Shown here one piece after another: positions 3,342-38,632 of a stretch of DNA of 38,871 nt. The notes beneath the pieces are model-generated. The model worked only from the letters and a program-made list of their open reading frames with translations. It did not search any database and was not told the DNA's origin. Numbering within the stretch: position 1 is the stretch's first letter; every line of letters begins with the position of its first letter. The position numbers and the translations under genes are program-made. This DNA is from Candidatus Fermentibacterota bacterium. GTDB taxonomy: Bacteria; JAFGKV01. The stretch is from contig JAUXFG010000015.1 of assembly GCA_030620115.1 (NCBI GenBank), positions 1 to 38,871 on the forward strand, written 5' to 3'.

Positions 3342-4282
3342 TGCCGCTCCTCCCGGGTGAGTTCCAAGAATACATCCTCCAGGCTGGTTCCGCTGGGCAA
3401 GAGACTCCTCAGGCCCCAGCCCTGTTCCACTATGGCCTGGACCAGCCGTTCCCGAAAGAGCGGCTCGGCAGGGATACGCAGCTCGGCGACATTTATCCCT
3501 TGGTCATCTGCGGTGAGAGTGACCAACTCCGTATTCTGGAGCGCGTTGAGGAAAGCGCGTACGTCATCCTCAGGGCCCCGAACCTCCAGCTTCACGGGAA
3601 GTGCACCCTCCATCCTCGAGATCAGACCTTGGGTCGTATCTTGGGCCACCACCGTGCCTTGATGGATGATCGCGATCCTGTCGCATGTGGCGCCGACTTC
3701 CGACAATATGTGCGAGCACAGTATGACCGTGTGATCTCGACCAAGCTCTTTGATGAGCTTCCTCACTTCGTGGATCTGTTTGGGATCAAGGCCGACCGTG
3801 GGTTCATCCAGAATCACGACCTTTGGATCATGCACAATGGCCTGGGCGAGTCCGATTCGTTGCCGGTACCCCTTGGAAAGCCCTTTGATAAGCCGATGTT
3901 GTACAGAGCCGATTTCACATCGCTCGATCACCGAATCAAGAGCGGCATGTCGCCTCTCCTTGGGCACCTCCTTGAGTGCCGCCATATATTCGAGGAATGC
4001 CCTGGCCGTCATCTCCGTGTACAATGTCACATTCTCTGGGAGATACCCGATTGAGCGCCTCACATCCATTGACTGCCCGGGTATATGATACCCTGCCACT
4101 GATACGCTTCCCTCGTCTGGGGAAAGAAACCCTGTCAAGATCCGCATGGTGGTCGTTTTGCCTGCAGCGTTCGGTCCGAGGAAGCCGAGGATCTCATGTC
4201 GCTGTACACAAAAATTCACCCCGTGGAGCGCCTCAACTTCACCGAATCGCTTGTGAAGATCCTTCACATCTATCATCGTCAC
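3338..4282 (-). CDS. ABC transporter ATP-binding protein (GldA-like)
   Basis: Walker A motif GPNAAGKTT, ABC signature LSKGYRQR, Walker B VVILDEPT. Confidence 0.9.
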   Translation of the reverse strand: MTMIDVKDLHKRFGEVEALHGVNFCVQRHEILGFLGPNAAGKTTTMRILTGFLSPDEGSVSVAGYHIPGQSMDVRRSIGYLPENVTLYTEMTARAFLEYMAALKEVPKERRHAALDSVIERCEIGSVQHRLIKGLSKGYRQRIGLAQAIVHDPKVVILDEPTVGLDPKQIHEVRKLIKELGRDHTVILCSHILSEVGATCDRIAIIHQGTVVAQDTTQGLISRMEGALPVKLEVRGPEDDVRAFLNALQNTELVTLTADDQGINVAELRIPAEPLFRERLVQAIVEQGWGLRSLLPSGTSLEDVFLELTREERQ

Positions 4283-4317
4283 CTCATCTGTTGAGCAGCA
4301 TGATTGTGGGTAATGGT

Positions 4318-4947
4318 TTATGGGGACCTCGGGTGGTCCCCCGTGGCTGTGGTACGCCGAGCGCGTGATCTGCGCCAGGTCAGGTAGATGAATATCAGCG
4401 CCAGCGCGGCCAGCGCCAAACCCGCCTTGCTGATGAATGAAATGACCTCAAGCCAGTACATCCCCACGGAGTAACCACCAGCCACAAGTATGGTCTGCCA
4501 CATGATGACGGCTATCGCCACGGCCCATGCAGCCCGGCCGAACCGCATCCGGGCAAGCCCGGCGGCCAGGATGATCAAAGATCGAACGCCTGGTATGAAC
4601 CGAGAGAGGATCACGATAATAGTACCCCGTTCTCGAACCAGGGATCGCGCCCGATCCATGGAACTCGATCGGGACAGCCAGCCCATGAATCCACTACGGG
4701 GGGTATCAGCCCACGTACGGCCGAGAGCCCACAACAGGAGTGCCCCGAGATAGCTCCCGAGGATTGAAAGCACCAGAACAAAAACAAGCGCGCGCTGCTG
4801 CCTGGCAGCGGCAAAACTGCAGAACACGATTACCGTATCTCCTGGATAAGGAGGGAATATTGTCTCAACAAATGAAGAGATGAATAGGATGTAGTAGATA
4901 TGATCGAGAGGAATGCTATCTATGAACCGAAGAACCTGATCCTGCAC
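4318..4947 (-). CDS. DedA/VTT-domain (SNARE-associated) inner-membrane protein
   Basis: Motif YILFISSFVETIFPPYPGDTVIV followed by multiple TM helices. Confidence 0.75.
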   Translation of the reverse strand: MQDQVLRFIDSIPLDHIYYILFISSFVETIFPPYPGDTVIVFCSFAAARQQRALVFVLVLSILGSYLGALLLWALGRTWADTPRSGFMGWLSRSSSMDRARSLVRERGTIIVILSRFIPGVRSLIILAAGLARMRFGRAAWAVAIAVIMWQTILVAGGYSVGMYWLEVISFISKAGLALAALALIFIYLTWRRSRARRTTATGDHPRSP

Positions 4948-12519: not shown

Positions 12520-12676
12520 TAGGAATCGCAAGGCCCTTTATGATCTTCAAAAGGGTTATCCCGGACTTCTCACCGGCTTTCGTCGCGAAGCGGTGGAGTT
12601 GGCGGTGGCTGTCCCGCACCCAACGCTTTGGGTGCGGGATGAGAAATGCGGGTTATAGGTTATCCCGGACACCCTT
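12520..12676. repeat. REPIN-like composite repeat. Inverted copy of module 'cttcgcgacgaaagccggtgagaagtccgggataaccc' (12553–12590), then perfect hairpin cccgcacccaa-cgct-ttgggtgcggg (12613–12638), then module 'gagaaatgcgggtta'
   Basis: Same modules recur at 31897–31970, 33530–33700, 37540–37590 and 38366–38450. The six-frame track translates them into pseudo-similar peptides (HRFATKAGEK.., HRFETKAGEK.., SRLATKAGEK..) in different frames. Confidence 0.7.
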
Positions 12677-13073: not shown

Positions 13074-13517
13074 ATGGCAAAGACCATGGTTGAAATGGCA
13101 GCGGAGATTGTTGGAGCCCAGGCGGCTTCGGGCAGGATGTCACCGGAGGAACTCTCAAACTCCATCCACAGAGTGTATGATTCATTGGTGGAGGTTCAGA
13201 GAAAAGAGAAGCTGGCGGAGACGGAGCCGGAAGACGTTAGCGGACTGGGGCAGCTTCGGGCTCGACCGGAAAAATCGATTACTCGCGCGCACGTCATCTG
13301 TCTCGAGTGCGGGATGAAGTTCAAGCAGCTCACGGCCAGACATCTGGCGACCCACGGCGTGTCTCCCGCGGATTACCGCGCCAAATGGGGCTTCACCAAG
13401 AGACAACCCCTTGTCGCCAAGCAGCTTTCTGCCCAGCGTCGCAAGACGGCACTGGACAACAAGCTTGGTGAGCGTCTCGCAGAGGCTCGCCGTCAACGTT
13501 TGGCAGAGAGAGGCTAA
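13074..13517 (+). CDS. MucR/Ros-family C2H2 zinc-finger transcriptional regulator
   Basis: ICLECGMKFKQLTARHLATHGVSPADYRAKWG matches the Ros/MucR zinc-finger and DNA-binding signature. GGAGG RBS 7 nt upstream of the ATG. Long AT-rich upstream region with TTGACA-like -35 elements. Confidence 0.85.
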   Translation: MAKTMVEMAAEIVGAQAASGRMSPEELSNSIHRVYDSLVEVQRKEKLAETEPEDVSGLGQLRARPEKSITRAHVICLECGMKFKQLTARHLATHGVSPADYRAKWGFTKRQPLVAKQLSAQRRKTALDNKLGERLAEARRQRLAERG

Positions 13518-13893: not shown

Positions 13894-14676
13894 ATGGCTC
13901 GCAGAACAGTCTACGCAGACGCACATTGCCATCTTGATCAACTCGAAGATGCGCCAAAGGAGATCGCTGCCGCCAAGAAGCTCGGTGTGAAGCGTTTCCT
14001 TTCCAACAGCGAGGATCTGGCCTCCATGAAACGTAACCTCGCGCTGGCTCGTGAATTCCCGGGCGTGGTACTCCCGGGGTTGGGCATTCATCCGGCGGAA
14101 TTGGTAGGCCAGGATGACAAAACAGTTGCGGCGGAGCTGGATTTCATCAAGGCGCATGTAGAATCTGCCTCGTTTCTCGGTGAGATCGGCCTTGATTTCC
14201 TGCATGCCGCCACTCCAGTCCAACAGGATCGACAGAAGAAGATCCTCATCGAGCAGTTCGAGGTTGCGGCGGCGGCCGACCTCCCCGTGGTCATCCATTC
14301 CCGCCGTGCACAGCGCCCTGCCATGAACGCCGCGTTTCGATATGTAGAAACATACGGCCGGCCGGTTCTTCTGCACTGGTTTACTCAATCGGTCAAATTG
14401 CTGCTCGAGGTGAATCGCCGACCAGGGATCTATATCTCGGCAGGCCCGGCAGTGCTTTTCAATGCAGGAGCTCGCAAGGTCGTTGCCCATGCCATACTCG
14501 ACCGGTTGCTGGTTGAGACCGATGCCCCCGTGCCGTTCGACGGCGAACCAGCTCGACCATCATGGATACCCCGAGTGGTGGAAACGATTGCAAGCATCTT
14601 CCGGATATCACCCGAAGACCTGGCAAAACAACTGAACAAGAATCTTGATCGCTTCTTAGGACTCGCGCAGAAATAA
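13894..14676 (+). CDS. tatD: TatD-family metal-dependent hydrolase/DNase
   Basis: N-terminal DAHCHLD motif, TIM-barrel hydrolase pattern, 260 aa. Confidence 0.9.
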   Translation: MARRTVYADAHCHLDQLEDAPKEIAAAKKLGVKRFLSNSEDLASMKRNLALAREFPGVVLPGLGIHPAELVGQDDKTVAAELDFIKAHVESASFLGEIGLDFLHAATPVQQDRQKKILIEQFEVAAAADLPVVIHSRRAQRPAMNAAFRYVETYGRPVLLHWFTQSVKLLLEVNRRPGIYISAGPAVLFNAGARKVVAHAILDRLLVETDAPVPFDGEPARPSWIPRVVETIASIFRISPEDLAKQLNKNLDRFLGLAQK

Positions 14677-14745
14677 GTTCGTAGTTATGGCACACAGATA
14701 TGCCGCAGATTGGGTCTCCCCCATGTAGGGGCATGCCGTGCCCAC
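14660..14745. repeat. Inverted partial copy of the composite element seen at 37200–37330: shared 'tg(c/t)gccataact..cttat(t)tctgcgcga(a/g)tcc' and 'catgcccctacatggg'
   Basis: Nucleotide similarity is visible directly. It is also reflected in pseudo-peptides CPYMGE.../AIT..LFLRES in ORFs 14656..14856(-) and 37201..37587(+). Overlaps the last codons of tatD. Confidence 0.6.
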
Positions 14746-27365: not shown

Positions 27366-27443
27366 AGAGTACAGCAAATATGAAATGTACTCTCAAAGAA
27401 GCATTCAGCGTTCAGCGTTCAGCGTTCAGGGTTGTAAGTTCAG
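27366..27443. promoter_or_regulatory. 9-bp inverted repeat gagagtaca/tgtactctc with AT-rich loop (27366–27395), followed by tandem heptads cattcag-cgttcag-cgttcag-cgttcag-..-agttcag (27402–27443)
   Basis: Read directly from the sequence. Lies 90–160 nt upstream of the minus-strand SH3b lipoprotein gene. Confidence 0.5.
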
Positions 27444-27518
27444 AACTTCGGCAATGACATGTCAACCAGAATGGACGCTTTCCTCGATCTCGCGTAACAT
27501 CTCAATAAATCCGGGCAT

Positions 27519-27547
27519 CCGACATCCTCCCCCTTTGGCAAAGGGGG
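27519..27547. repeat. Repeat module 'gcatccgacatcctcc(c/a)ccttt(g/c)gcaaagggg', including the hairpin ccccctttggcaaaggggg
   Basis: Second copy at 31759–31790. Confidence 0.6.
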
Positions 27548-27876
27548 ATTGAGGCCACCGGCTCATAGAGCCTATGGCTCGGTGAGGGGATTTTTCCAAT
27601 ATCGCACGGACTTATTGAGAAACCACGACTATTGGACATACATAACACCATGGCCATTCCCTCTCCTCCGCAACATCTTCGGAATCGGAATCGGCATCGC
27701 TATCGAAATCAGCCACCCAGCTGCTCGTTTTTCTAACCTTCGTCAGACATCTATATTCTCGTGACTGAGGGCTATGTGATCACACCTCAATTCGATTCCG
27801 ATCCCGATCAACTCGTCTTTTTCCGCCTCTATTCATACCCAATGGCATATGTGTCACCCAGACAAGACGCCCTTCC

Positions 27877-31559: not shown

Positions 31560-31964
31560 GTGTAACCGTTCAGGGGTTGAAAGGTTGATAGGTTCAGGGT
31601 TCACCGGAAATCCGAACCGTTGAGTCGTGGGATCTGAAAGGTAGCCTTGAATCCCGCTTCCAGCGGGAAACTCTGAACCTGTGAACGCTTACAGATGGCC
31701 CAAGCTGACTTCAGGCAACCCTGAACGGTGAACGCTGAACCCGTGAACGGCTTGTCCGTGCATCCGACATCCTCCACCTTTCGCAAAGGGGAATTCATCC
31801 GATATCTCACGAACTCATTGAGAAGTTACCAACTCCGCACATATTGCGCTATGGAGGGACGTCGGCTTCCAGATACTTCGCTGTCGCTCTGCATCCCGCG
31901 TCAGACGCGGGACAGCCACAGCCAACTACACCGCTTCGAGACGAAAGCCGGTGAGAAGTGCGGG
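31560..31964. repeat. Repeat cluster of four parts: TGAAC heptad arrays (31570–31600, 31660–31680, 31705–31740), the CCTTTCGCAAAGGGG hairpin module (31759–31790), the GC hairpin cccgcgtcagacgcggg (31897–31913), and module 'gagacgaaagccggtgagaagtgcgggctaag' (31936–31968)
   Basis: Direct comparison with 27400–27550, 12550–12660, 33530–33700 and 38366–38450. Confidence 0.65.
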
Positions 31965-33506
31965 CTAAGGATGCAACTGGCGCCGCCATCTCAATGCTAC
32001 AAGAACATGTCCCTTAAGTCGACGCCACCCGTTCTTGAGCGCCACCAGCCGATTGAAAAGGCTCTCGAAATAGGGCCGGTTGAATAGGGAGAGAAAGACC
32101 GGCTTGGAAAGGATTCGTACGATGCCATGGGGAAAACCTCGGGCGAGGAGTACATAGAGGACATTGAGGTAGTTACGGCGGAAAACACGATAGTCCTTCT
32201 GGTACAGAAGCCTCTCTTCGTCTACTATTCCTTCGGATAGCGCCTTCTCCAATAGCTTCGTACCCGGGAACAGTGCTAGCGAATAGAGCTGCAATACAAA
32301 AGGTCTTGGCAGGTCAAGGACCAGTTGAAGGGTCTCAAGTTCGTCCTCTATTGCGGAGAAGGGATTATCCAGAATGATGTCATAGAGAGGAATGATGCGG
32401 CCTTTGTACTTGTTGATGATCTTGGCGGCCTGAGTGACTGTTTCGCGTGAAGACCAAGTGCGTTGATACAGCTCATTTATCCTCTTGCTTCCTGTCTGGA
32501 TCCCGACCTGAAGCAAGAAAAGCCCCGCGTCCGCGAGGTACTTCATTTTTTCGGATGTGATACTCCGAGGGGTGGCCGTACACCGAAATGGGAGAGCTAC
32601 TTCTCTGGTATATGCCTCAAGAAAGTCCCTTATCTCTTCATTCCGTGTGTGAACGAATGTATCATCAGAAAAAAGAATGGCCCGTACAAAAGGAAAGCGT
32701 TCTCTGAATGCTTTGATCTCAGCAATTGCATTGGCATTCGACCGGCGTCGAACGTACGGCTGCCCAGGATAAAGCGCAGCCAACGCTTGATTGCCGCAGA
32801 ATGTGCACTTGTATGGACAACCCCGCGTAATCATGATCTGAAAGGTCGATTGAGCCCGACGGAGAGATCGAGGGCCGTAGTCCAGATAAACCTCAAGTAA
32901 GCCTGGATCCAAATTGACGATCCGCTGTTCTTCACGGCGGGAGATGTATTGATCTTCAAGATCGTAGTCCTGGAAGGGGAGAGTATCGAGATCCTGCAGC
33001 AGTGGGCGAAGCGGCGTCTCCACAATATGCCCATCTGTTTTCGTGTAGATATTCCTGATTCTTGTGGTGGGTTTGTCCTCTTTGAGAGCAATTGCCAACT
33101 CCAGTAGCGCTTCTTCCCCTTCCCCAACGCATACGAAATCTGCGTGCTCCAGGCATTGTTCTGGACGGAGAGTTGGATGAATTCCTCCCCATACGACGGG
33201 AACGCCCAGGCGTTGCACGATCCCGTCTGTGAGATGCCCCATGGAATGATGGTAATTTGTCATCATGGAGATGCCGATGAGAGATGACCCCTCGCACAGC
33301 TCAATCACCTGATCAATAACGTGAGGAGGGAATGTGAATTCCCAATTCGGGGTATCAACCTCTTCACAGAGCAAAACGTTCGATAGGAACAGCATTCGCG
33401 TCGAAACGCCATGTTCTTTGAGATACGACGAAAGCCCGCGCAGACTAAGAGCGGAAATATCAGTAAAGGGACTGATGAGAACAACGTCATAGGATTTCAT
33501 AAACAA
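31965..33506 (-). CDS. B12-binding-domain radical SAM protein (class B radical SAM family)
   Basis: N-terminal Rossmann-like cobalamin-binding domain (VVLISP...GISMMT...VVWGGIHPT), then radical SAM motif ITRGCPYKCTFC (CX3CX2C), then a long C-terminal domain; 513 aa. Confidence 0.85.
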   Translation of the reverse strand: MFMKSYDVVLISPFTDISALSLRGLSSYLKEHGVSTRMLFLSNVLLCEEVDTPNWEFTFPPHVIDQVIELCEGSSLIGISMMTNYHHSMGHLTDGIVQRLGVPVVWGGIHPTLRPEQCLEHADFVCVGEGEEALLELAIALKEDKPTTRIRNIYTKTDGHIVETPLRPLLQDLDTLPFQDYDLEDQYISRREEQRIVNLDPGLLEVYLDYGPRSLRRAQSTFQIMITRGCPYKCTFCGNQALAALYPGQPYVRRRSNANAIAEIKAFRERFPFVRAILFSDDTFVHTRNEEIRDFLEAYTREVALPFRCTATPRSITSEKMKYLADAGLFLLQVGIQTGSKRINELYQRTWSSRETVTQAAKIINKYKGRIIPLYDIILDNPFSAIEDELETLQLVLDLPRPFVLQLYSLALFPGTKLLEKALSEGIVDEERLLYQKDYRVFRRNYLNVLYVLLARGFPHGIVRILSKPVFLSLFNRPYFESLFNRLVALKNGWRRLKGHVLVALRWRRQLHP

Positions 33507-33519
33507 TCACCTTAGTTCT

Positions 33520-33730
33520 ATCCGTTCAGTCCGCGTCACGCGGCATCTTTGTTCGGTACTGCCGACGTGATGTGACAAATCCCTCCTCGTGATCCCGCGT
33601 TCGCCGCGGGGGGAAGAAATGCGGGCTTAGCCCAAGCTTCTCACCAATCCTGCGGCGGGTTCGCTTCGAAAGCCGGTGAGAAGTCCGGATTAGGCGGGTT
33701 TCGAACCCGGCTTTGGACTCAAAACAGGGA
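33520..33730. repeat. REP-like cluster with three components: hairpins tccgcgtcacgcgg and cccgcgttcgccgcgggg, modules 'ggaagaaatgcgggcttagcc' and 'cgaaagccggtgagaagtccggattaggc', and 'gtttcgaacccggctt'
   Basis: Same module family as at 12553–12656, 31897–31968, 37540–37590 and 38366–38450. Confidence 0.65.
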
Positions 33731-33812
33731 TAAGAAGGAGATCTTTTTGAAATTTGCAAGAGATCGGTGTGAATATGAGGATATCTTGGAAGAACCCTTC
33801 TGGGGGCCAAGT

Positions 33813-34820
33813 GGGGTCAGGCATTGCTAACGGCGAATTGAGATTTACTCTTCACGTCATTGATACGATCGTGTAGTGTTCTATCCCGATTCATCCTGTT
33901 CCGTAATCGAGCCGCGCCCGCGCTCAGGGTCGAGCTGTCCCGCTGAAATACTTTCGCCGCTTCTGCAATCGTGATCTCAGGGTGCTCCTGTACTATCAGC
34001 CCGATAACCGACCGCGCCTCTGACGCCAATCGTCCCCTTCCCGGTGCCAAAAGCTCGTCCTGTGCTATCCCGTATGCTTTGCATACGCCATCAATGATCC
34101 CGTCGAGTGTTATCCGTGTCCCTTTCATGCCATCTTCGGCTTCCTGCACTCGCTCGATGAAACTCTCATTTCCGATGAGTCGACCGTCAGACTGCGCCGG
34201 ACTGAACTCAGACTTGGCTGCGTCACTATCCAATCCACCCAAAACGAATCGGTGGAACCGTTCTCGTGCTTCTCCTTCTCGGTCTGCAAACCGAGCCAAA
34301 ACCAACCCCTCTGTGAGCCAGGGCAGTGTATCGTCTCCTCTGTAGAATCGATGGCTGCTCCAGCGATATGATTCCGGTCTTTTCATGATACCGGCTCGCA
34401 CAGGATTGAGATGAATGTAGCTCACCAATTGAAGCAGATAGGAGTCGACATCTACCAAATTTGTCTTGTACCGCCCCTGAAACAGATGACCAACTCGTTG
34501 GTGGCGCCTGTTGAACCACTGGGTATACCGGAACGTGAGATTCTGCATGATGCGGGAGAGTGGCCGTTCTCCCACCTGGATCGCGATATGGATGTGGTCG
34601 TCGAGCAGACAAAACGCGTGAACGCGGTACCCAAATCGCTCGGTCCCTTCTTGCATCAAAAGACAAAATCTTGTCCGGTCTACGTCATCATAGAACACAT
34701 CATCCTGGGCGTTCCCCCGCAGGATGACATGATACAAGGCCCCTTGATAGTGGATTCGTGGTTTACGTGACATGCTGTCCAATATACATACTCACATCGC
34801 TGTTAGCAATGCCTGACCCC
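33813..34820 (-). mobile_element. Y1 (IS200-like/RAYT-type) transposase unit bounded by 23-bp imperfect terminal inverted repeats: ggggtcaggcattgctaacggcg (33813–33835) and cgctgttagcaatgcctgacccc (34798–34820)
   Basis: The inverted repeats match at 22 of 23 positions. The right IR encodes the C-terminal ...AVSNA of the transposase. Confidence 0.7.
33817..34773 (-). CDS. IS200-like Y1 tyrosine transposase (REP-associated tyrosine transposase-like) with C-terminal DnaA-C-like helix-turn-helix domain
   Basis: HxH motif DDHIHIAIQ and catalytic-Tyr region YRWSSHRFY typical of the Y1_Tnp family; C-terminal GIAQDELL...ITIAEAAKVFQRDSSTLS resembles DnaA domain IV. Start taken at ATG 34771–34773; the ORF-track start at 34782 is a TTG. 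Confidence 0.8.
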   Translation of the reverse strand: MSRKPRIHYQGALYHVILRGNAQDDVFYDDVDRTRFCLLMQEGTERFGYRVHAFCLLDDHIHIAIQVGERPLSRIMQNLTFRYTQWFNRRHQRVGHLFQGRYKTNLVDVDSYLLQLVSYIHLNPVRAGIMKRPESYRWSSHRFYRGDDTLPWLTEGLVLARFADREGEARERFHRFVLGGLDSDAAKSEFSPAQSDGRLIGNESFIERVQEAEDGMKGTRITLDGIIDGVCKAYGIAQDELLAPGRGRLASEARSVIGLIVQEHPEITIAEAAKVFQRDSSTLSAGAARLRNRMNRDRTLHDRINDVKSKSQFAVSNA

Positions 34821-34827
34821 AATCGGC

Positions 34828-35755: not shown

Positions 35756-36049
35756 GACCAACGGTTCGAGTTCAGCGGACCGAACCCCGCAGGGGTGAGG
35801 GTCCGCTTGAGCGAGTTGTTCAAGTAAGCCGCTTCGCGGCAGTTTGGTTTCCCTCTTTCATGTAGTATACTTGCCGTTGACACCCGCCGAAGTCCGATTC
35901 CGAACCTTTACCTTTTGAACTAGCATATACCTTGCCGGGGCGGCTTGGCGACCACATCTCTTGCCACGCTCCGCGGCTTCATGAACCAGGAATTAGAAGC
36001 GAGCACTCGCTTCGCGAGACTCGGGTCTAATCCTTATCTTGTTCGGCTT

Positions 36050-36695: not shown

Positions 36696-37295
36696 CAGCG
36701 CAGCCGACGTCCGAACCTTGATTATAGGACGGTTCTGCCTACAAATATCCACATACATAATGCGCTGCAGAGGAGAAGGCAACAAGTTCTTGGGGAAATT
36801 GAGCGGTCTTGGCTTGACTCAGAGCGTTGACGAGTAGAGCCAATAGCTAGCGATATATGGTCATTAAATGAAATAACAGAGAGATAGCATGACCAGATCA
36901 CTTATTGCTTCGTTCAATTCAAATCCGAGATGGCCGAGTGGTACTGCATCCAAGTGCTTCGGAATTGGATGGTAGAGGAGAGCGATATTGCTCATTTCTT
37001 GCGATGGGTCCGAGCGTTCTTCGCTGCATAAGAGAGCTCCGCTTTGAACCATGTCTGATGGCATTTGCTGGATGCTTGATGCTGGAAGGAAAGGACGGAT
37101 CAAGGGTCCCGTCTACGCTTGACCGCGCCGTGACAAATCACCGTGGCGACCTGTCTCGGCGAAGCTCGAAGAGCGAAGACGGAAGCCGGATGGGCATGGC
37201 ATGCCATGCCCCTACATGGGCGAGGTCTGGGAGCGTCAGGAAAGGGATGGGGGATTGTCGGGTTACGCTATGCTAACCCGACCTACGGGATACTG

Positions 37296-37600
37296 CGCCA
37301 TAACTGTGATCTTATTCTTGCGCGAATCCTTGGCTATGTCTCGCCCTTTCAGGGCTGAGGGGTTTTACTTCTGTGCCTGTGCCCCAGGGCTACGCCCTGT
37401 CGGGCTTTCCCTGGGCTGGTATGTCAAGCCCCTTCAGGGCACATTGCGAGAATGGCTATATCGACTGACGGACAGAGTATACGGCATCGGGCTACGCGCT
37501 GGCAGAGCCGGGGTCCTCGATCGTCCCGGGACAGCCGCAGGCATCTATGGCCTCTCGCGACAAAATCGGATGAGAAGTCCGGGTTAAGATGCGACATCTG
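37296..37600 (+). repeat. Composite repeat copy A (~300 bp) with three modules: 'cttattcttgcgcgaatccttggctatgtctcgccctttcagggctgagg', 'ccagggctacgccc...gggctttccctgggctggtatgtcaagccccttcagggcacattgcgagaatggctatatcg', and terminal 'tctcgcgacaaaatcggatgagaagtccgggttaag'
   Basis: Direct repeat of 38165–38458, roughly 85% identical with one 26-bp hairpin indel, by eye alignment. Confidence 0.75.
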
Positions 37601-37690
37601 ATGAAATTCTTCTTCGGGAACATCACACCTTTTCGTGGACGGGAAAATGGGCAGCAAAGAATAGTCTAGTAAATCTATGGATTTACTAGA

Positions 37691-38143
37691 CTATTCATCT
37701 ATCTGCTTCAGGATGGCCTGGATTTCATGGGCGAATGCCCGGATCTCGTCGCGGATGCGACGGTAGTGTTGAAGAGCTTCATCCTCGTTATGCGCGCGCG
37801 CAGCAAGCGCCGGGGGATCATCGAATCCGCGGTGGAGCATGGTCGTTTTGCGTGGAAAGATCGGGCACGTTTCCCTGGCGTGGCCGCAGAGGGTAATGAC
37901 ATAGTCGAATTCCACATCGAGTAGTTCTTGCACGTCTTTTGAACGCTGGTCCGAGATATCAACGCCAGCCTCCGCCATTACTATGATGGCCCTCGGATCC
38001 ACGCTTTTTGCCACGATGCCCGCGGAATATGCCTCCACCAGGTCACCCATGAGACGACGCGTCCACCCTTCTGCCATCTGGCTCCTGCAGGAATTCCCGG
38101 TGCAGAGAAAGAGTATCTTCGGATTCAGTTGCTTCTCTTGCAT
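37691..38143 (-). CDS. arsC: Arsenate reductase of the LMW-PTP (thioredoxin-coupled) family
   Basis: ILFLCTGNSCRSQMAEGW (CX5R P-loop), downstream Cys pair LCGHARETCP, GFDDP; 150 aa; aligns along its length with the pI258-type ArsC pattern. Confidence 0.9.
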   Translation of the reverse strand: MQEKQLNPKILFLCTGNSCRSQMAEGWTRRLMGDLVEAYSAGIVAKSVDPRAIIVMAEAGVDISDQRSKDVQELLDVEFDYVITLCGHARETCPIFPRKTTMLHRGFDDPPALAARAHNEDEALQHYRRIRDEIRAFAHEIQAILKQIDE

Positions 38144-38164
38144 GGCACTCGTCCCCTATTGGCG

Positions 38165-38458
38165 CGCTATTCTCGCGCGAATCCTTGGCTATGTCTCGCC
38201 CTTTCAGGGCTGAGGGATTTTCCTTCTGTGCCCCAGGGCTACGCCCCGTCGGGCTTTCCCTGGGCTGGTATGTCAAGCCCCTTCAGGGCACATTGCGAGA
38301 ATGGCTATATCGGCTGACGGACAGAGGCTACGCCCTGGCAGAGCCGGGAGCCTTGGTCGTCCCGCACCCAAAGCGTTGGGTGCGGGACAGCCACAACCAT
38401 TTCTCCCGTCTCGCGACGAAAGCCGGTGAGAAATGCGGGTTAAGCATGAGATGTGACA
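38165..38458 (+). repeat. Composite repeat copy B; contains the hairpin cccgcacccaa-agcg-ttgggtgcggg (38368–38393) and terminal module 'tctcgcgacgaaagccggtgagaaatgcgggttaag'
   Basis: Direct repeat of 37296–37600. Its hairpin has the same stem as 12613–12638 but a reverse-complemented loop, so the two copies are in opposite orientation. Confidence 0.75.
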
Positions 38459-38604
38459 CAACAGCAACGAAGGAACCTGGCCGGATGCTCCCCGGTGCGC
38501 AGTGGACGCGTGGACCCCACATGGATATCTTCCCTCGCGATTCTTCACCAGCTATCGTGATTTCGGTACTGCATGAATATCGCCCGGCCCCATGCCCGGG
38601 CAAC

Positions 38605-38632
38605 CCTTGAACCCTGAACGGTGAACCCCTAC
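38605..38632 (+). promoter_or_regulatory. Three tandem (C/T)TGAAC(C/G) heptads (ttgaacc-ctgaacg-gtgaacc) immediately upstream of a secreted-protein gene
   Basis: Same heptad family as at 27402–27443 and 31570–31740. Confidence 0.4.

What the first reader, a model, noticed from the sequence alone, without database searches (positions are those of the whole stretch)
37296..38458. Stand-alone arsC bracketed by ~300-bp direct repeats
A thioredoxin-type arsenate reductase gene sits alone, with no arsR/arsB/acr3 in the window. It lies exactly between two same-orientation copies of the composite repeat (37296–37600 and 38165–38458). This geometry is what is expected for a gene captured or excisable by recombination between repeats (a cassette or composite-element-like unit). 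Alternatively it reflects insertion of arsC into a tandem REP array.
Basis: seen in the sequence. Interest (0 to 1): 0.55.

Follow-up and report, generated by a model that had tools for sequence, protein, structure and literature searches.

The report
arsC gene between two mosaic repeats
A single arsenate-reductase gene really does sit between two same-direction ~277-base repeats, but these are non-coding patchworks of ordinary bacterial intergenic repeat families, and nothing shows that they capture or move the gene.

Summary
Repeat A is 37313-37588 and repeat B is 38168-38444, in the same orientation. A thioredoxin-type arsC (37691-38143, minus strand) lies between them with its own Shine-Dalgarno sequence and a strong terminator hairpin.

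The repeats are mosaics with no coding capacity.
- **5' half:** a doublet of a REP-like two-hairpin unit. This unit is widespread in metagenomes, matches Rfam Acido-Lenti-1 there, and flanks small Y1 (RAYT-like) transposase genes in inverted orientation.
- **3' half:** the right end of a MITE-like element that has other copies in the window.
- **Left of A:** two GTAG-tagged REPs and a further module. B starts inside that module, so B is a truncated copy of an A-like composite.

Identity is uneven: 97% over the first ~170 nt and 81% over the rest. This points to an old duplication with later partial homogenisation.

arsC has host-like composition. Its closest homologue (78% aa), in an apparent relative, lies in unique DNA. 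None of 78 other arsC loci has flanking repeats. No integrase, attC or transposase belongs to the unit.

Verdict: a BIME-like repeat cluster duplicated around a resident gene. RecA-mediated loss or amplification of the 855-bp unit is possible but not shown. Interest is low to moderate.

The parts
37192..37215 (-). GTAG-tagged REP hairpin 1, left of repeat A. The + strand reads GGGCATGGC-AT-GCCATGCCC followed by CTAC.
   Evidence: Read from the sequence. An inverted partner lies at 14716-14742 (pair I7).
37257..37286 (-). GTAG-tagged REP hairpin 2. The + strand reads GTCGGGTTA-CGCTATGC-TAACCCGAC followed by CTAC.
   Evidence: Read from the sequence. About 11 of the metagenome loci give BLAST hits to this stretch.
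37294..37331 (+). Module 3 (TGCGCCATAACTGTGATCTTATTCTTGCGCGAATCCT). It spans the left edge of repeat A. Only its last ~19-21 nt are present in B.
   Evidence: Alignment with the reverse complement of 14655-14700; BLAST 81% over 37 nt.
37313..37588 (+). Direct repeat A, a 276-nt mosaic.
37335..37441 (+). REP-like doublet inside A. It holds motif TATGTCNNGCCCYTTCAGGGC at 37335-37355 and 37420-37440, and an extended hairpin CCCAGGG...CCCTGGG at 37383-37415. The stretch 37383-37441 is an Acido-Lenti-1-like unit.
   Evidence: 4 motif matches in the window against 0.04 expected. RF01687 scores 18.6 bits, below the gathering score of 37.
37517..37588 (+). Degenerate right half of a MITE-like element in A. 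It ends in the terminal repeat GATGAGAAGTCCGGGTTAAG. The internal hairpin is lost through a 20-nt deletion.
37589..37658 (.). Unique AT-rich spacer between A and the arsC terminator. Together with the terminator (37589-37690) it is 40% GC.
37659..37696 (-). Perfect 17-bp palindrome with a 4-nt loop. It overlaps the arsC stop codon and is followed by UUUG on the minus strand. It is a likely intrinsic terminator.
   Evidence: pair I2.: -31.1 kcal/mol, z = -9.3.
37691..38143 (-). arsC, a thioredoxin-coupled LMWP-type arsenate reductase of 150 aa. Key residues are C14, R20, C86, C93 and D107/D108.
   Evidence: The public record calls the gene from M23 (P0002, 128 aa), which removes the P-loop.
38144..38167 (-). 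arsC 5' leader. It holds a Shine-Dalgarno-like AGGGGA (38152-38157, minus strand) 8 nt before the ATG.
   Evidence: Read from the sequence.
38168..38444 (+). Direct repeat B, a 277-nt mosaic. Its left end is truncated inside module 3.
38190..38290 (+). REP-like doublet inside B, with the motif at 38190-38210 and 38269-38289. The stretch 38232-38290 is an Acido-Lenti-1-like unit.
38354..38444 (+). Right half of the MITE-like element in B. It holds the hairpin CCCGCACCCAA-AGCG-TTGGGTGCGGG and the terminal repeat GGTGAGAAATGCGGGTTAAG.
   Evidence: pair I3; 83% identity to the copy at 12.6 kb.
12555..12660 (-). Complete copy of the MITE-like element, with both terminal inverted repeats and the internal hairpin. 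It serves as the reference for the 3' module of A and B.
31898..31973 (+). Another right-half copy of the MITE-like element. Its terminal repeat overlaps the stop codon of the B12-radical SAM gene.
33626..33694 (+). Short copy of the MITE-like element, with the two terminal repeats in inverted orientation.

Best explanation
**What it is.** The two repeats are copies of one non-coding mosaic intergenic repeat cluster, comparable to the BIMEs (mosaic REP clusters) of enterobacteria. Each copy has three parts:
- the last ~20 nt of a small dispersed module;
- a doublet of a REP-like two-hairpin unit. This unit belongs to a family that is widespread in metagenomes, matches Rfam Acido-Lenti-1 there, and is the cognate repeat of small Y1 (RAYT-like) transposases;
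- the right half of a MITE-like element.

**How the pair arose.** B starts in the middle of a module that is complete at A, and both copies share the same order of parts. B is therefore a segmental copy of an A-like composite rather than an independent accretion. The duplication is old, since the right ~100 nt are about 19% diverged. The left ~170 nt were later homogenised to 97%, most simply by gene conversion between copies only 855 nt apart.

**The gene.** arsC is a resident, compositionally native, monocistronic gene. It has its own Shine-Dalgarno sequence and a terminator hairpin.

**What the repeats do.** They have no dedicated function in moving arsC. They behave like other REP or BIME clusters, that is, hairpin-forming intergenic DNA. 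As a by-product they give RecA a substrate that could delete or tandemly amplify the 855-bp arsC unit.

**Shown versus inferred.**
- Shown: the repeat anatomy, the family links, the uneven identity, the native composition of arsC, and the absence of a recombinase.
- Inferred: the order of events (old duplication, then conversion), the lack of a mobilising role, and the potential for recombination.
For: **Anatomy and identity.**
- Boundaries and indels.
- Uneven identity: 96.8% against 80.8%, p = 3e-5.
- B's 3' module is 83% identical to the copy at 12.6 kb but only 68-77% identical to A's.
- Module 3 extends left of A and matches 14655-14700, while B begins inside it.

**The REP-like motif.**
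- It occurs 4 times in the window, all within A and B, against 0.04 expected.
- The consensus 45-nt unit reaches the Rfam RF01687 gathering score in L107, L129, L166 and L154.
- Hairpin 1 is kept by compensatory changes: CA/TG 115 times, CG/CG 8, TA/TA 6, TG/CA 6, and only 4 uncompensated variants.
- Eleven of the 120 loci carry a ~150-aa Y1_Tnp gene. Wherever both flanks are on the contig, the unit lies on both sides of that gene in inverted orientation.

**The MITE-like element.** Its terminal repeat occurs 6 times in the window against 0 expected. Complete inverted-repeat copies are seen at 12555-12660, at 33626-33694, and in L081 at 4211-4329.

**arsC looks resident.**
- Its GC is 0.558 and its GC3 is 0.649, against a window mean GC3 of 0.63 +/- 0.06.
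- It has its own terminator.
- Neither the ORFs called on A and B nor arsC itself (next best hit 78%) has a close homologue beyond this contig.
- None of 78 arsC loci has flanking repeats.
Against: - **Copy number is unknown.** Only 38.9 kb of this genome is available, so I cannot say how many copies of the composite exist elsewhere. The protein-level search only sees copies that were called as ORFs.
- **The first duplication is unexplained.** I cannot say how a 277-nt segment came to lie on both sides of a 579-nt gene segment. B abuts the arsC leader at a non-homologous junction only 24 nt from the ATG, which is also what a capture or insertion event would leave.
- **Other histories fit the uneven identity.** It could reflect recent insertion of the 5' part at both places, or faster decay of A's 3' part, instead of gene conversion.
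- **No cognate transposase here.** No RAYT-like Y1 gene for the REP-like unit lies in the window. The unit is also not abundant in the lineage: there are no copies outside A and B in the window or in about 40 kb of contigs from apparent relatives.
Confidence: 0.55

Rival explanations
1. **Recombination-mediated capture.** In this reading, arsC arrived as a circular or linear unit of about 855 bp that carried one repeat copy. It integrated by homologous (Campbell-type or homology-facilitated) recombination at a resident copy of the repeat. That produced the two direct repeats, and the unit can leave again in the same way.
For: - B is truncated inside module 3 and is joined to the arsC leader 24 nt from the ATG, which looks like a novel junction.
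- The composite was not found anywhere else.
- The closest arsC homologue, on a contig that shares repeat families with this window, sits in a different context next to CDF and thioredoxin-like genes.
- The spacer and terminator have 40% GC, unlike their surroundings.
- Identical runs of up to 65 nt would allow RecA-dependent exchange.
Against: - arsC composition is indistinguishable from the host genes.
- The right parts of A and B are about 19% diverged with two indels, so any such event is ancient and the unit has been stable since.
- No second copy of this arsC allele exists in 5.8 billion protein clusters.
- None of 78 homologous arsC loci shows flanking repeats.
- No recombinase is associated with the unit.
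Confidence: 0.2
2. **The repeats are RNA genes or cis-regulatory RNA.** Rfam classes Acido-Lenti-1 as an sRNA. In this reading the bracket reflects two paralogous RNA loci rather than repeat DNA.
For: - There are weak RF01687 matches at 37383-37441 and 38232-38290.
- The hairpin shows compensatory changes across metagenome copies.
- B lies about 200 nt upstream of the + strand OmpA-like gene.
Against: - The window copies score 18.6 bits against a gathering score of 37.
- Whole-repeat folding of A is no better than shuffled sequence (z = -0.14). B's score comes from one perfect hairpin.
- In metagenomes the unit occurs in both orientations, in palindromic pairs, and flanking Y1 transposase genes. 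That is the signature of a REP acted on as DNA.
- No promoter or terminator pattern frames the repeats.
Confidence: 0.07
3. **Cargo of a single-strand (Y1/HUH) transposable element.** In this reading A and B act as same-orientation left and right ends with subterminal hairpins, as in IS200/IS605-type elements. arsC is a passenger, mobilised in trans by a Y1 transposase encoded elsewhere.
For: - The hairpin-bearing units in A and B are in direct orientation on one strand, as IS200/IS605 ends are (established knowledge of IS608).
- The unit family is associated with Y1 transposases in metagenomes.
Against: - No Y1 gene of that clade is in the window (tblastn on the window).
- The Y1 gene that is present (33817-34782) belongs to a different, TIR-associated class.
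- Homologous ends of 277 nt are not a feature of that family.
- No second copy of the unit was found.
- REPtron-type elements are not known to carry cargo (PMC6006769).
Confidence: 0.04
4. **Integron gene cassette.** In this reading arsC is a cassette and the repeats are attC sites of a chromosomal integron array, with the nearby toxin-antitoxin genes as further cassettes.
For: - Toxin-antitoxin genes (PIN/RHH, ParE) lie next to arsC.
- The right end of the repeat contains GTTAAGC, which fits the GTTRRRY core.
- The 3' module is an imperfect palindrome in its complete copies.
Against: - No tyrosine recombinase or IntI was seen in the Pfam scans of the window's larger ORFs.
- The repeats are 277 nt and collinear, not 57-141-nt R''-L''...L'-R' palindromes.
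- A and B lack the left arm.
- Copies of the 3' module occur in both orientations next to housekeeping genes (ftsY, radical SAM), far from any array.
- The TA genes are not separated by the repeat.
Confidence: 0.01
5. **Assembly artefact.** In this reading the bracket arises from a mis-join at repeats in a metagenome assembly. The contig ends 427 nt after B.
For: - The window is a 38,871-nt metagenome-derived contig.
- Contigs of relatives are short (2.4-2.7 kb), which suggests that repeats fragment these assemblies.
Against: - A and B differ by 24 substitutions and three indels, so they are distinct loci and not an unrolled circle or a collapsed repeat.
- The longest identical run is 65 nt.
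Confidence: 0.04

Closest known systems
BIMEs, the mosaic clusters of REP sequences and other short motifs in enterobacterial intergenic regions (background in PMC6006769; original descriptions cited from my own knowledge)
   Same: Both are non-coding and extragenic. Both are built from several short dispersed motif types combined in a fixed order and are rich in hairpins. Here copies lie downstream of a gene and between divergent genes.
   Different: The motif families here are unrelated in sequence to the E. coli Y/Z REPs. The composite also includes half of a MITE-like element. Only two copies of the composite are known, and they flank one gene.
REP / RAYT systems (REPtrons, REPINs): PMC3116915, PMC3337134, PMC6006769
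   Same: The 5' core unit is a short palindromic repeat. Across metagenomes it is multi-copy, keeps its hairpin by compensatory change, and flanks a single small Y1 (HUH) transposase gene in inverted orientation.
   Different: The consensus unit has no GT[AG]G tag at the hairpin foot. It is a two-hairpin unit of 45 nt. The associated Y1 protein scores closest to the IS200 model (51.7 bits against a cut-off of 55). No cognate gene lies in this window, and the unit is not abundant here.
Rfam RF01687 Acido-Lenti-1 RNA motif (Weinberg et al. 2010, PMC2864571)
   Same: The architecture is the same: hairpin, conserved CU..U.U.U linker, second short hairpin. Canonical metagenome relatives of the window unit pass the gathering score.
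   Different: The window copies score 18.6 bits against a gathering score of 37, because hairpin 1 carries a 13-nt extension. Rfam treats the motif as an sRNA. The contexts seen here point to a DNA repeat tied to a transposase.
MITEs (miniature inverted-repeat transposable elements)
   Same: The 3' module family has complete copies of about 70-120 nt, bounded by 17-26-nt terminal inverted repeats and dispersed in both orientations.
   Different: A and B hold only the right half. No parent IS is known, and target-site duplications were not established.
REP-mediated tandem duplication and deletion in Salmonella and E. coli (Shyamala et al. 1990; cited from my own knowledge, not checked here)
   Same: Short dispersed repeats in direct orientation can serve as RecA substrates that duplicate or delete the interval between them.
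   Different: No duplication or deletion product of the arsC interval has been observed.
Integron cassettes, and IS26-type translocatable units or composite transposons
   Same: A single promoter-proximal gene is bracketed by direct repeats.
   Different: There is no integrase, no attC structure and no transposase gene in the repeats. The unit does not recur elsewhere.
Thioredoxin-coupled ArsC of B. subtilis and S. aureus pI258 (PDB 1JL3, 1LJL)
   Same: The LMWP fold family is shared. The CX5R P-loop, the Cys82/Cys89-equivalent pair and the catalytic Asp are conserved.
   Different: The gene is not in an ars operon. Its TIGR02691 score (138) is below the equivalog cut-off of 174.

Membership tests
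REP / RAYT system (5' core unit of the repeats) | Short imperfect palindrome able to form a stem-loop | tested here: met
   The hairpin CCCAGGG...CCCTGGG and the short hairpin GCCCCTTCAGGGC are present. Compensatory stem variants occur across metagenome copies.
REP / RAYT system (5' core unit of the repeats) | Extragenic and present in many copies in the host genome | tested here: inconclusive
   Both copies are extragenic. However, there are only 4 motif copies in 38.9 kb, all inside A and B. The rest of the genome is not available. The family is multi-copy on several metagenome contigs.
REP / RAYT system (5' core unit of the repeats) | Cognate Y1 transposase gene flanked by the repeat in inverted orientation (REPtron) | tested here: met
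   This is met for the family in L126, L096/L119 and L154, and partly in L165, L150 and L112. It is not met in the window itself, where no such gene was found.
REP / RAYT system (5' core unit of the repeats) | Conserved GT[AG]G (or CGTC) tetranucleotide at the foot of the hairpin | tested here: not met
   The consensus CCCAGGGCGTTGCCCTGGGCTGG has no such tag. PMC6006769 notes that some Y1 subclasses have atypical untagged structures. The two separate REPs at 37192-37215 and 37257-37286 do carry the tag.
Rfam RF01687 Acido-Lenti-1 | Covariance-model score at or above the gathering score (37 bits) | tested here: not met
   The window copies score 18.6 and 13.8 bits. Metagenome relatives score 43.8, 38.7, 38.2 and 37.6 bits.
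MITE (3' module) | Terminal inverted repeats bounding a short non-coding element | tested here: met
   This is met at 12555-12660, at 33626-33694 and in L081 at 4211-4329. A, B and the copy at 31898-31973 have only the right terminal repeat.
MITE (3' module) | Target-site duplication and a related autonomous IS | not tested
   There are too few complete copies, and no candidate parent IS lies in the window.
Integron gene cassette | attC site (R''-L''...L'-R', 57-141 nt) at the 3' end of the cassette | tested here: not met
   The repeats are 277-nt collinear mosaics. A and B lack the left arm of the palindrome.
Integron gene cassette | IntI integrase and a regular array of cassettes | tested here: not met
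   No Phage_integrase hit appears in the Pfam scans. The repeat copies are scattered in both orientations.
Composite transposon or IS26-type translocatable unit | Flanking repeats are IS copies that encode a transposase | tested here: not met
   The ORFs on A and B (128 and 139-141 aa) have no homologues other than each other.
IS200/IS605-type element with cargo | Y1 transposase acting on subterminal hairpins at both ends, with defined cleavage sites | not testable with these tools
   The hairpins are in direct orientation, but there is no cognate Y1 gene in the window and no second copy from which to define ends.
Thioredoxin-coupled arsenate reductase (TIGR02691, pI258 family) | CX5R P-loop, second and third cysteines 7 residues apart (Cys82/Cys89 equivalents), catalytic Asp | tested here: met
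   The alignment with 1JL3 shows FLCTGNSCRSQMAEGW, TLCG.A...CP and GFDDP conserved.
Thioredoxin-coupled arsenate reductase (TIGR02691, pI258 family) | Score above the curated equivalog cut-off | tested here: not met
   The score is 138.2 bits against a cut-off of 174.3. TIGR02691 is still the best-scoring family.
ars operon | arsR and an arsenite efflux gene (arsB or acr3) adjacent to arsC | tested here: not met
   None appears in the Pfam scans of the window's larger ORFs. There is no ArsR-like tblastn hit.

The most novel reading that the evidence does not exclude
The 855-bp interval (one repeat plus arsC) is a repeat-bounded gene module that moves or changes copy number. This could happen in two ways. 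One is RecA-dependent excision, re-integration or tandem amplification between the mosaic repeats under arsenic stress. The other is mobilisation in trans by a Y1 (RAYT-like) transposase that recognises the same-strand hairpins in A and B. Either way it would be a REP-bounded cargo element with no transposase of its own.
Probability: 0.1. Interest if true: 0.6.

Novelty: new member of a known kind. Interest (0 to 1): 0.25.

Why it matters
As it stands, this is an example of how dense, mosaic intergenic repeats can mimic the look of a gene cassette. That is useful as a caution for genome scans and for annotation. The public record calls spurious ORFs on both repeats and starts arsC 22 codons too late, which removes its catalytic loop.

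If the repeats did mediate loss, gain or amplification of arsC, it would show REP-type repeats acting as boundaries of a small adaptive gene module in an uncultured lineage.

The side observation may have wider value. The Rfam 'sRNA' Acido-Lenti-1 behaves like the cognate repeat of a small Y1 transposase. That would reclassify a 15-year-old orphan RNA motif as a REP-type DNA element.

Tried and rejected
1. **Looking up the window's own contig.** Exact look-ups of arsC, of the SPFH protein and of the public gene call P0002 all returned 'not on record'. The rest of the genome could not be reached.
2. **Genome-collection scan with arsC**. It returned 80 loci, the best at 71% aa identity. No close relative and no repeat appeared.
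3. **Synteny test through the B12-radical SAM neighbour**. Orthologues at 84-86% identity lie on contigs of only 2.4-2.7 kb. Those at 69-72% have different neighbours. No presence/absence comparison of the arsC interval was possible.
4. **Protein-level search with the ORF that spans repeat A**. It returned only the two ORFs of this contig.
5. **Rfam at gathering threshold over the window**. No hits.
6. **tRNA scan**. No hits, so there is no tRNA-linked island.
7. **Whole-repeat RNA folding**. There is no convincing global structure beyond the individual hairpins.
8. **Promoter scan**. It found no convincing sigma-70 promoter for arsC inside B, so the source of arsC transcription remains open.
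9. **Taxon names via cluster look-up**. No names are held, so the phylum remains undetermined.
10. **Integron reading.** Rejected for lack of an integrase and of attC architecture.
11. **Unrolled-circle artefact.** Rejected because A and B differ at 24 positions and by three indels.
Full report
**Observation**

The sequence contains two same-orientation copies of a ~277-nt segment. A is 37313-37588 and B is 38168-38444, 855 nt apart start to start. The match is far beyond chance (BLAST E = 1.5e-75 within the window). The copies differ by three indels of 6, 13 and 20 nt.

Between them, on the minus strand, lies a 150-aa ORF (37691-38143).
- It is an LMWP-family protein (Pfam PF01451).
- Its best NCBIfam match is the thioredoxin-type arsenate reductase TIGR02691 (138 bits, below the equivalog cut-off of 174).
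- It aligns with B. subtilis ArsC 1JL3 at E = 1.7e-32, with the P-loop CTGNSCRS, the TLCG...CP cysteine pair and GFDDP all conserved.
- It has an AGGGGA Shine-Dalgarno sequence 8 nt before the ATG.
- A perfect 17-bp palindrome overlaps its stop codon and is followed by UUUG (-31 kcal/mol, z = -9.3).

It therefore looks like a self-contained monocistronic unit.

No arsR, arsB or acr3 was found in the window. The window is otherwise chromosomal. It carries ftsY, ispD, ispH, pyrB, tatD, radical SAM enzymes and glycosyltransferases, with toxin-antitoxin genes and a Y1 transposase gene in the last 5 kb.

**Anatomy of the repeats**

They are mosaics of at least three dispersed repeat families.

1. 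*The MITE-like 3' module.* The last ~70-90 nt hold a hairpin (CCCGC...GCGGGACAGCC) and then ...CGAAAGCCGGTGAGAAGTSCGGGTTAAG.
   - This stretch recurs at 12555-12660 (minus), 31898-31973 and 33626-33694.
   - The 20-nt terminal motif occurs six times in the window against none expected.
   - Three complete copies, two in the window and one in L081, have this motif at both ends in inverted orientation. The family is therefore MITE-like.
   - A and B contain only its right half.
2. *The REP-like doublet.* Positions ~22-123 of each repeat contain the motif TATGTCNNGCCCYTTCAGGGC twice, separated by a hairpin CCCAGGG...CCCTGGGCTGG. All four motif copies in the window are in A and B (0.04 expected).
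3. *Module 3 and the GTAG-tagged REPs.* The first ~20 nt of the repeat are the right end of a further module (37294-37331). At A this module continues leftwards and matches 14655-14700 in inverted orientation. Left of it lie two canonical GTAG-tagged REP hairpins (37192-37215 and 37257-37286). One has a partner at 14716-14742.

B begins in the middle of module 3, directly against the arsC leader.

**What the REP-like unit is**

The contexts give the following consensus:

CCCAGGGCGTTGCCCTGGGCTGG-TATGTCACGCCCTTTCAGGGC

- It often occurs as doublets like those in the window, or as large palindromic pairs.
- The first hairpin is maintained by compensatory changes: CA/TG 115, CG/CG 8, TA/TA 6, TG/CA 6, and four uncompensated variants.
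- Eleven of the 120 loci encode a ~150-aa protein next to the unit. It is a Y1_Tnp/IS200-like HUH transposase (Pfam E = 1e-20; NCBIfam IS200 51.7 bits against a cut-off of 55).
- Wherever both flanks are on the contig (L126, L096/L119, L154), the gene has the unit antisense just upstream and sense just downstream. This is the REPtron arrangement that defines REP-RAYT pairs (PMC6006769, PMC3116915).
- The canonical units reach the gathering score of Rfam RF01687 Acido-Lenti-1 (43.8, 38.7, 38.2 and 37.6 bits against 37).
- The window copies score only 18.6 bits because hairpin 1 carries a 13-nt extension. An extended-hairpin copy in L116 scores 32.6 bits, and L182, L183, L106, L110 and L200 carry similar extended hairpins.
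- Weinberg et al. described Acido-Lenti-1 only as a two-hairpin motif of Acidobacteria and Lentisphaerae, sometimes near group II introns (PMC2864571, supplement).

**Relationship of A and B**

Identity is 96.8% (153/158) over 37313-37483 but 80.8% (80/99) over the remaining part (p = 3e-5). B's MITE-like half is closer to the copy at 12.6 kb (83%) than to A's (68-77%). A's half has lost the hairpin.

The two copies nevertheless share three things:
- the same order of parts;
- a middle segment (GGCTACGCSCTGGCAGAGCCGGG...) not seen elsewhere;
- a left boundary that lies inside module 3.

B is therefore a segmental copy of an A-like composite and not an independent accretion. The simplest history is an old duplication of the ~277-nt mosaic, followed by recent homogenisation of its left 170 nt by gene conversion between copies 855 nt apart. 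This order of events is inferred. Recent spread of the left part, or faster decay of A's right part, would fit as well.

**Is arsC captured or mobile?**

Evidence against a captured or mobile arsC:
- arsC has GC 0.558 and GC3 0.649, which is typical of the window (mean GC3 0.63 +/- 0.06).
- In 5.8 billion protein clusters, the only hit above 78% identity is the contig's own gene call.
- The 78% homologue (P0003; L081/L082) lies between a CDF transporter gene and thioredoxin-like genes, without flanking repeats. Yet that contig carries the same MITE-like family and another 42-nt repeat of the window. It also comes from a sample that holds an 84% orthologue of the window's radical SAM gene. It is therefore probably from a relative.
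- None of 78 arsC-homologue loci with both flanks available has flanking direct repeats.
- The ORFs that the public record calls on A and B have no homologues but each other.
- There is no integrase, no attC-like structure and no transposase in the unit.

Evidence that keeps a capture reading alive:
- B meets the arsC leader at a non-homologous junction 24 nt from the ATG.
- The spacer and terminator are AT-rich (40% GC).
- The composite is known only from these two copies.

A Campbell-type integration of a repeat-plus-arsC circle, or some other rearrangement, could have produced the bracket. If so, it was long ago.

**What could not be done**

The contig could not be looked up, so the copy number of the composite in the genome is unknown. 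Orthologues of the neighbouring radical SAM gene at 84-86% identity sit on 2.4-2.7-kb contigs, and those at about 70% have other neighbours. The decisive presence/absence comparison was therefore not possible. The taxon could not be named.

**Verdict**

The cassette interpretation is not supported. The 'REP array' alternative is closer to the truth. The locus is best described as a BIME-like mosaic repeat cluster duplicated on both sides of a resident, stand-alone arsC. Its only inferred consequence is a potential for RecA-mediated deletion or amplification of the 855-bp unit; identical runs of 42, 21 and 65 nt are available. It is a new member of a known kind, and interest is low to moderate.

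The most interesting by-product is that Rfam's Acido-Lenti-1 'sRNA' behaves as the cognate REP of a small Y1 transposase.

Noticed in passing
L126 1463-2116; L096 5000-5646; L154 658-1312; L107 1789-2505 (metagenome loci). Window 37383-37441 and 38232-38290.: The Rfam family RF01687 Acido-Lenti-1, classed as an sRNA, appears to be a REP-type repeat. Units that pass its gathering score flank ~150-aa Y1 (IS200-like HUH) transposase genes in inverted orientation, which is the REPtron arrangement. They also occur as doublets and palindromic pairs on many metagenome contigs. I found no paper that makes this link.
   Followed up: partly
window 33806-34827: A 321-aa protein (33817-34782, minus) combines a Y1_Tnp domain with a DnaA C-terminal HTH. 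It is flanked by a 37-nt inverted repeat (33806-33842 and 34791-34827) that contains GGGGTCAG. This fits the TIRYT class (Y1 subclass 2.1), whose flanking repeats have the consensus GGGG[AT][CG]A[CG].
   Followed up: partly
window 37691-38143: The public record's gene call for arsC starts at Met23 (P0002, 128 aa). That removes the catalytic CX5R P-loop. The full 150-aa ORF has a Shine-Dalgarno sequence, and homologues align from residue 1-9.
   Followed up: yes
window 37201-37587 and 38185-38610: ORFs of 128 and 139-141 aa are called on repeats A and B in the public record (P0121, P0122). Their only homologues are each other, so they are almost certainly spurious translations of the repeats.
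   Followed up: yes
window 37192-37215, 37257-37286, 14716-14742: Canonical GTAG-tagged REP hairpins (GTAG followed by a 9-bp stem) sit just left of repeat A. A related copy lies at 14.7 kb next to a copy of module 3. They belong to a different REP family from the one inside A and B.
   Followed up: partly
window 27410-27434, 31570-31605, 31716-31740, 38600-38630; 27510-27550 and 31755-31795; L206 1-120: More dispersed intergenic repeat families occur here. One is GTTCAGCGTTCAGGGTTG-type runs. Another is a CATCCGACATCCTCCCCCTTTGGCAAAGGGGGATT hairpin module. The related contig L206 carries a similar hairpin module (ATCCCCCTTCGCAAAGGGGGAAGG) and GGGAACCTTGAACC runs. The lineage is unusually rich in repeats, which probably explains the short contigs of its relatives.
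   Followed up: no
window 36000-36041; L081 2623-2664: A 42-nt stretch just downstream of the ParE toxin gene is 95% identical to a stretch on the contig that carries the closest arsC homologue. Its nature is unknown; it could be a repeat or the conserved end of a TA module.
   Followed up: no
window 31950-31969: The terminal repeat of a MITE-like copy overlaps the TAG stop codon of the B12-binding radical SAM gene (31965-33506, minus). Orthologues at 82-85% nt identity (L206, L207) have unrelated sequence after the stop.
   Followed up: partly
window 13074-13517: A Ros/MucR-family zinc-finger regulator (Pfam E = 5e-36) is encoded in a genome whose phylum could not be determined. It lies divergent from ftsY, across an intergenic region that carries a complete MITE-like copy.
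   Followed up: no
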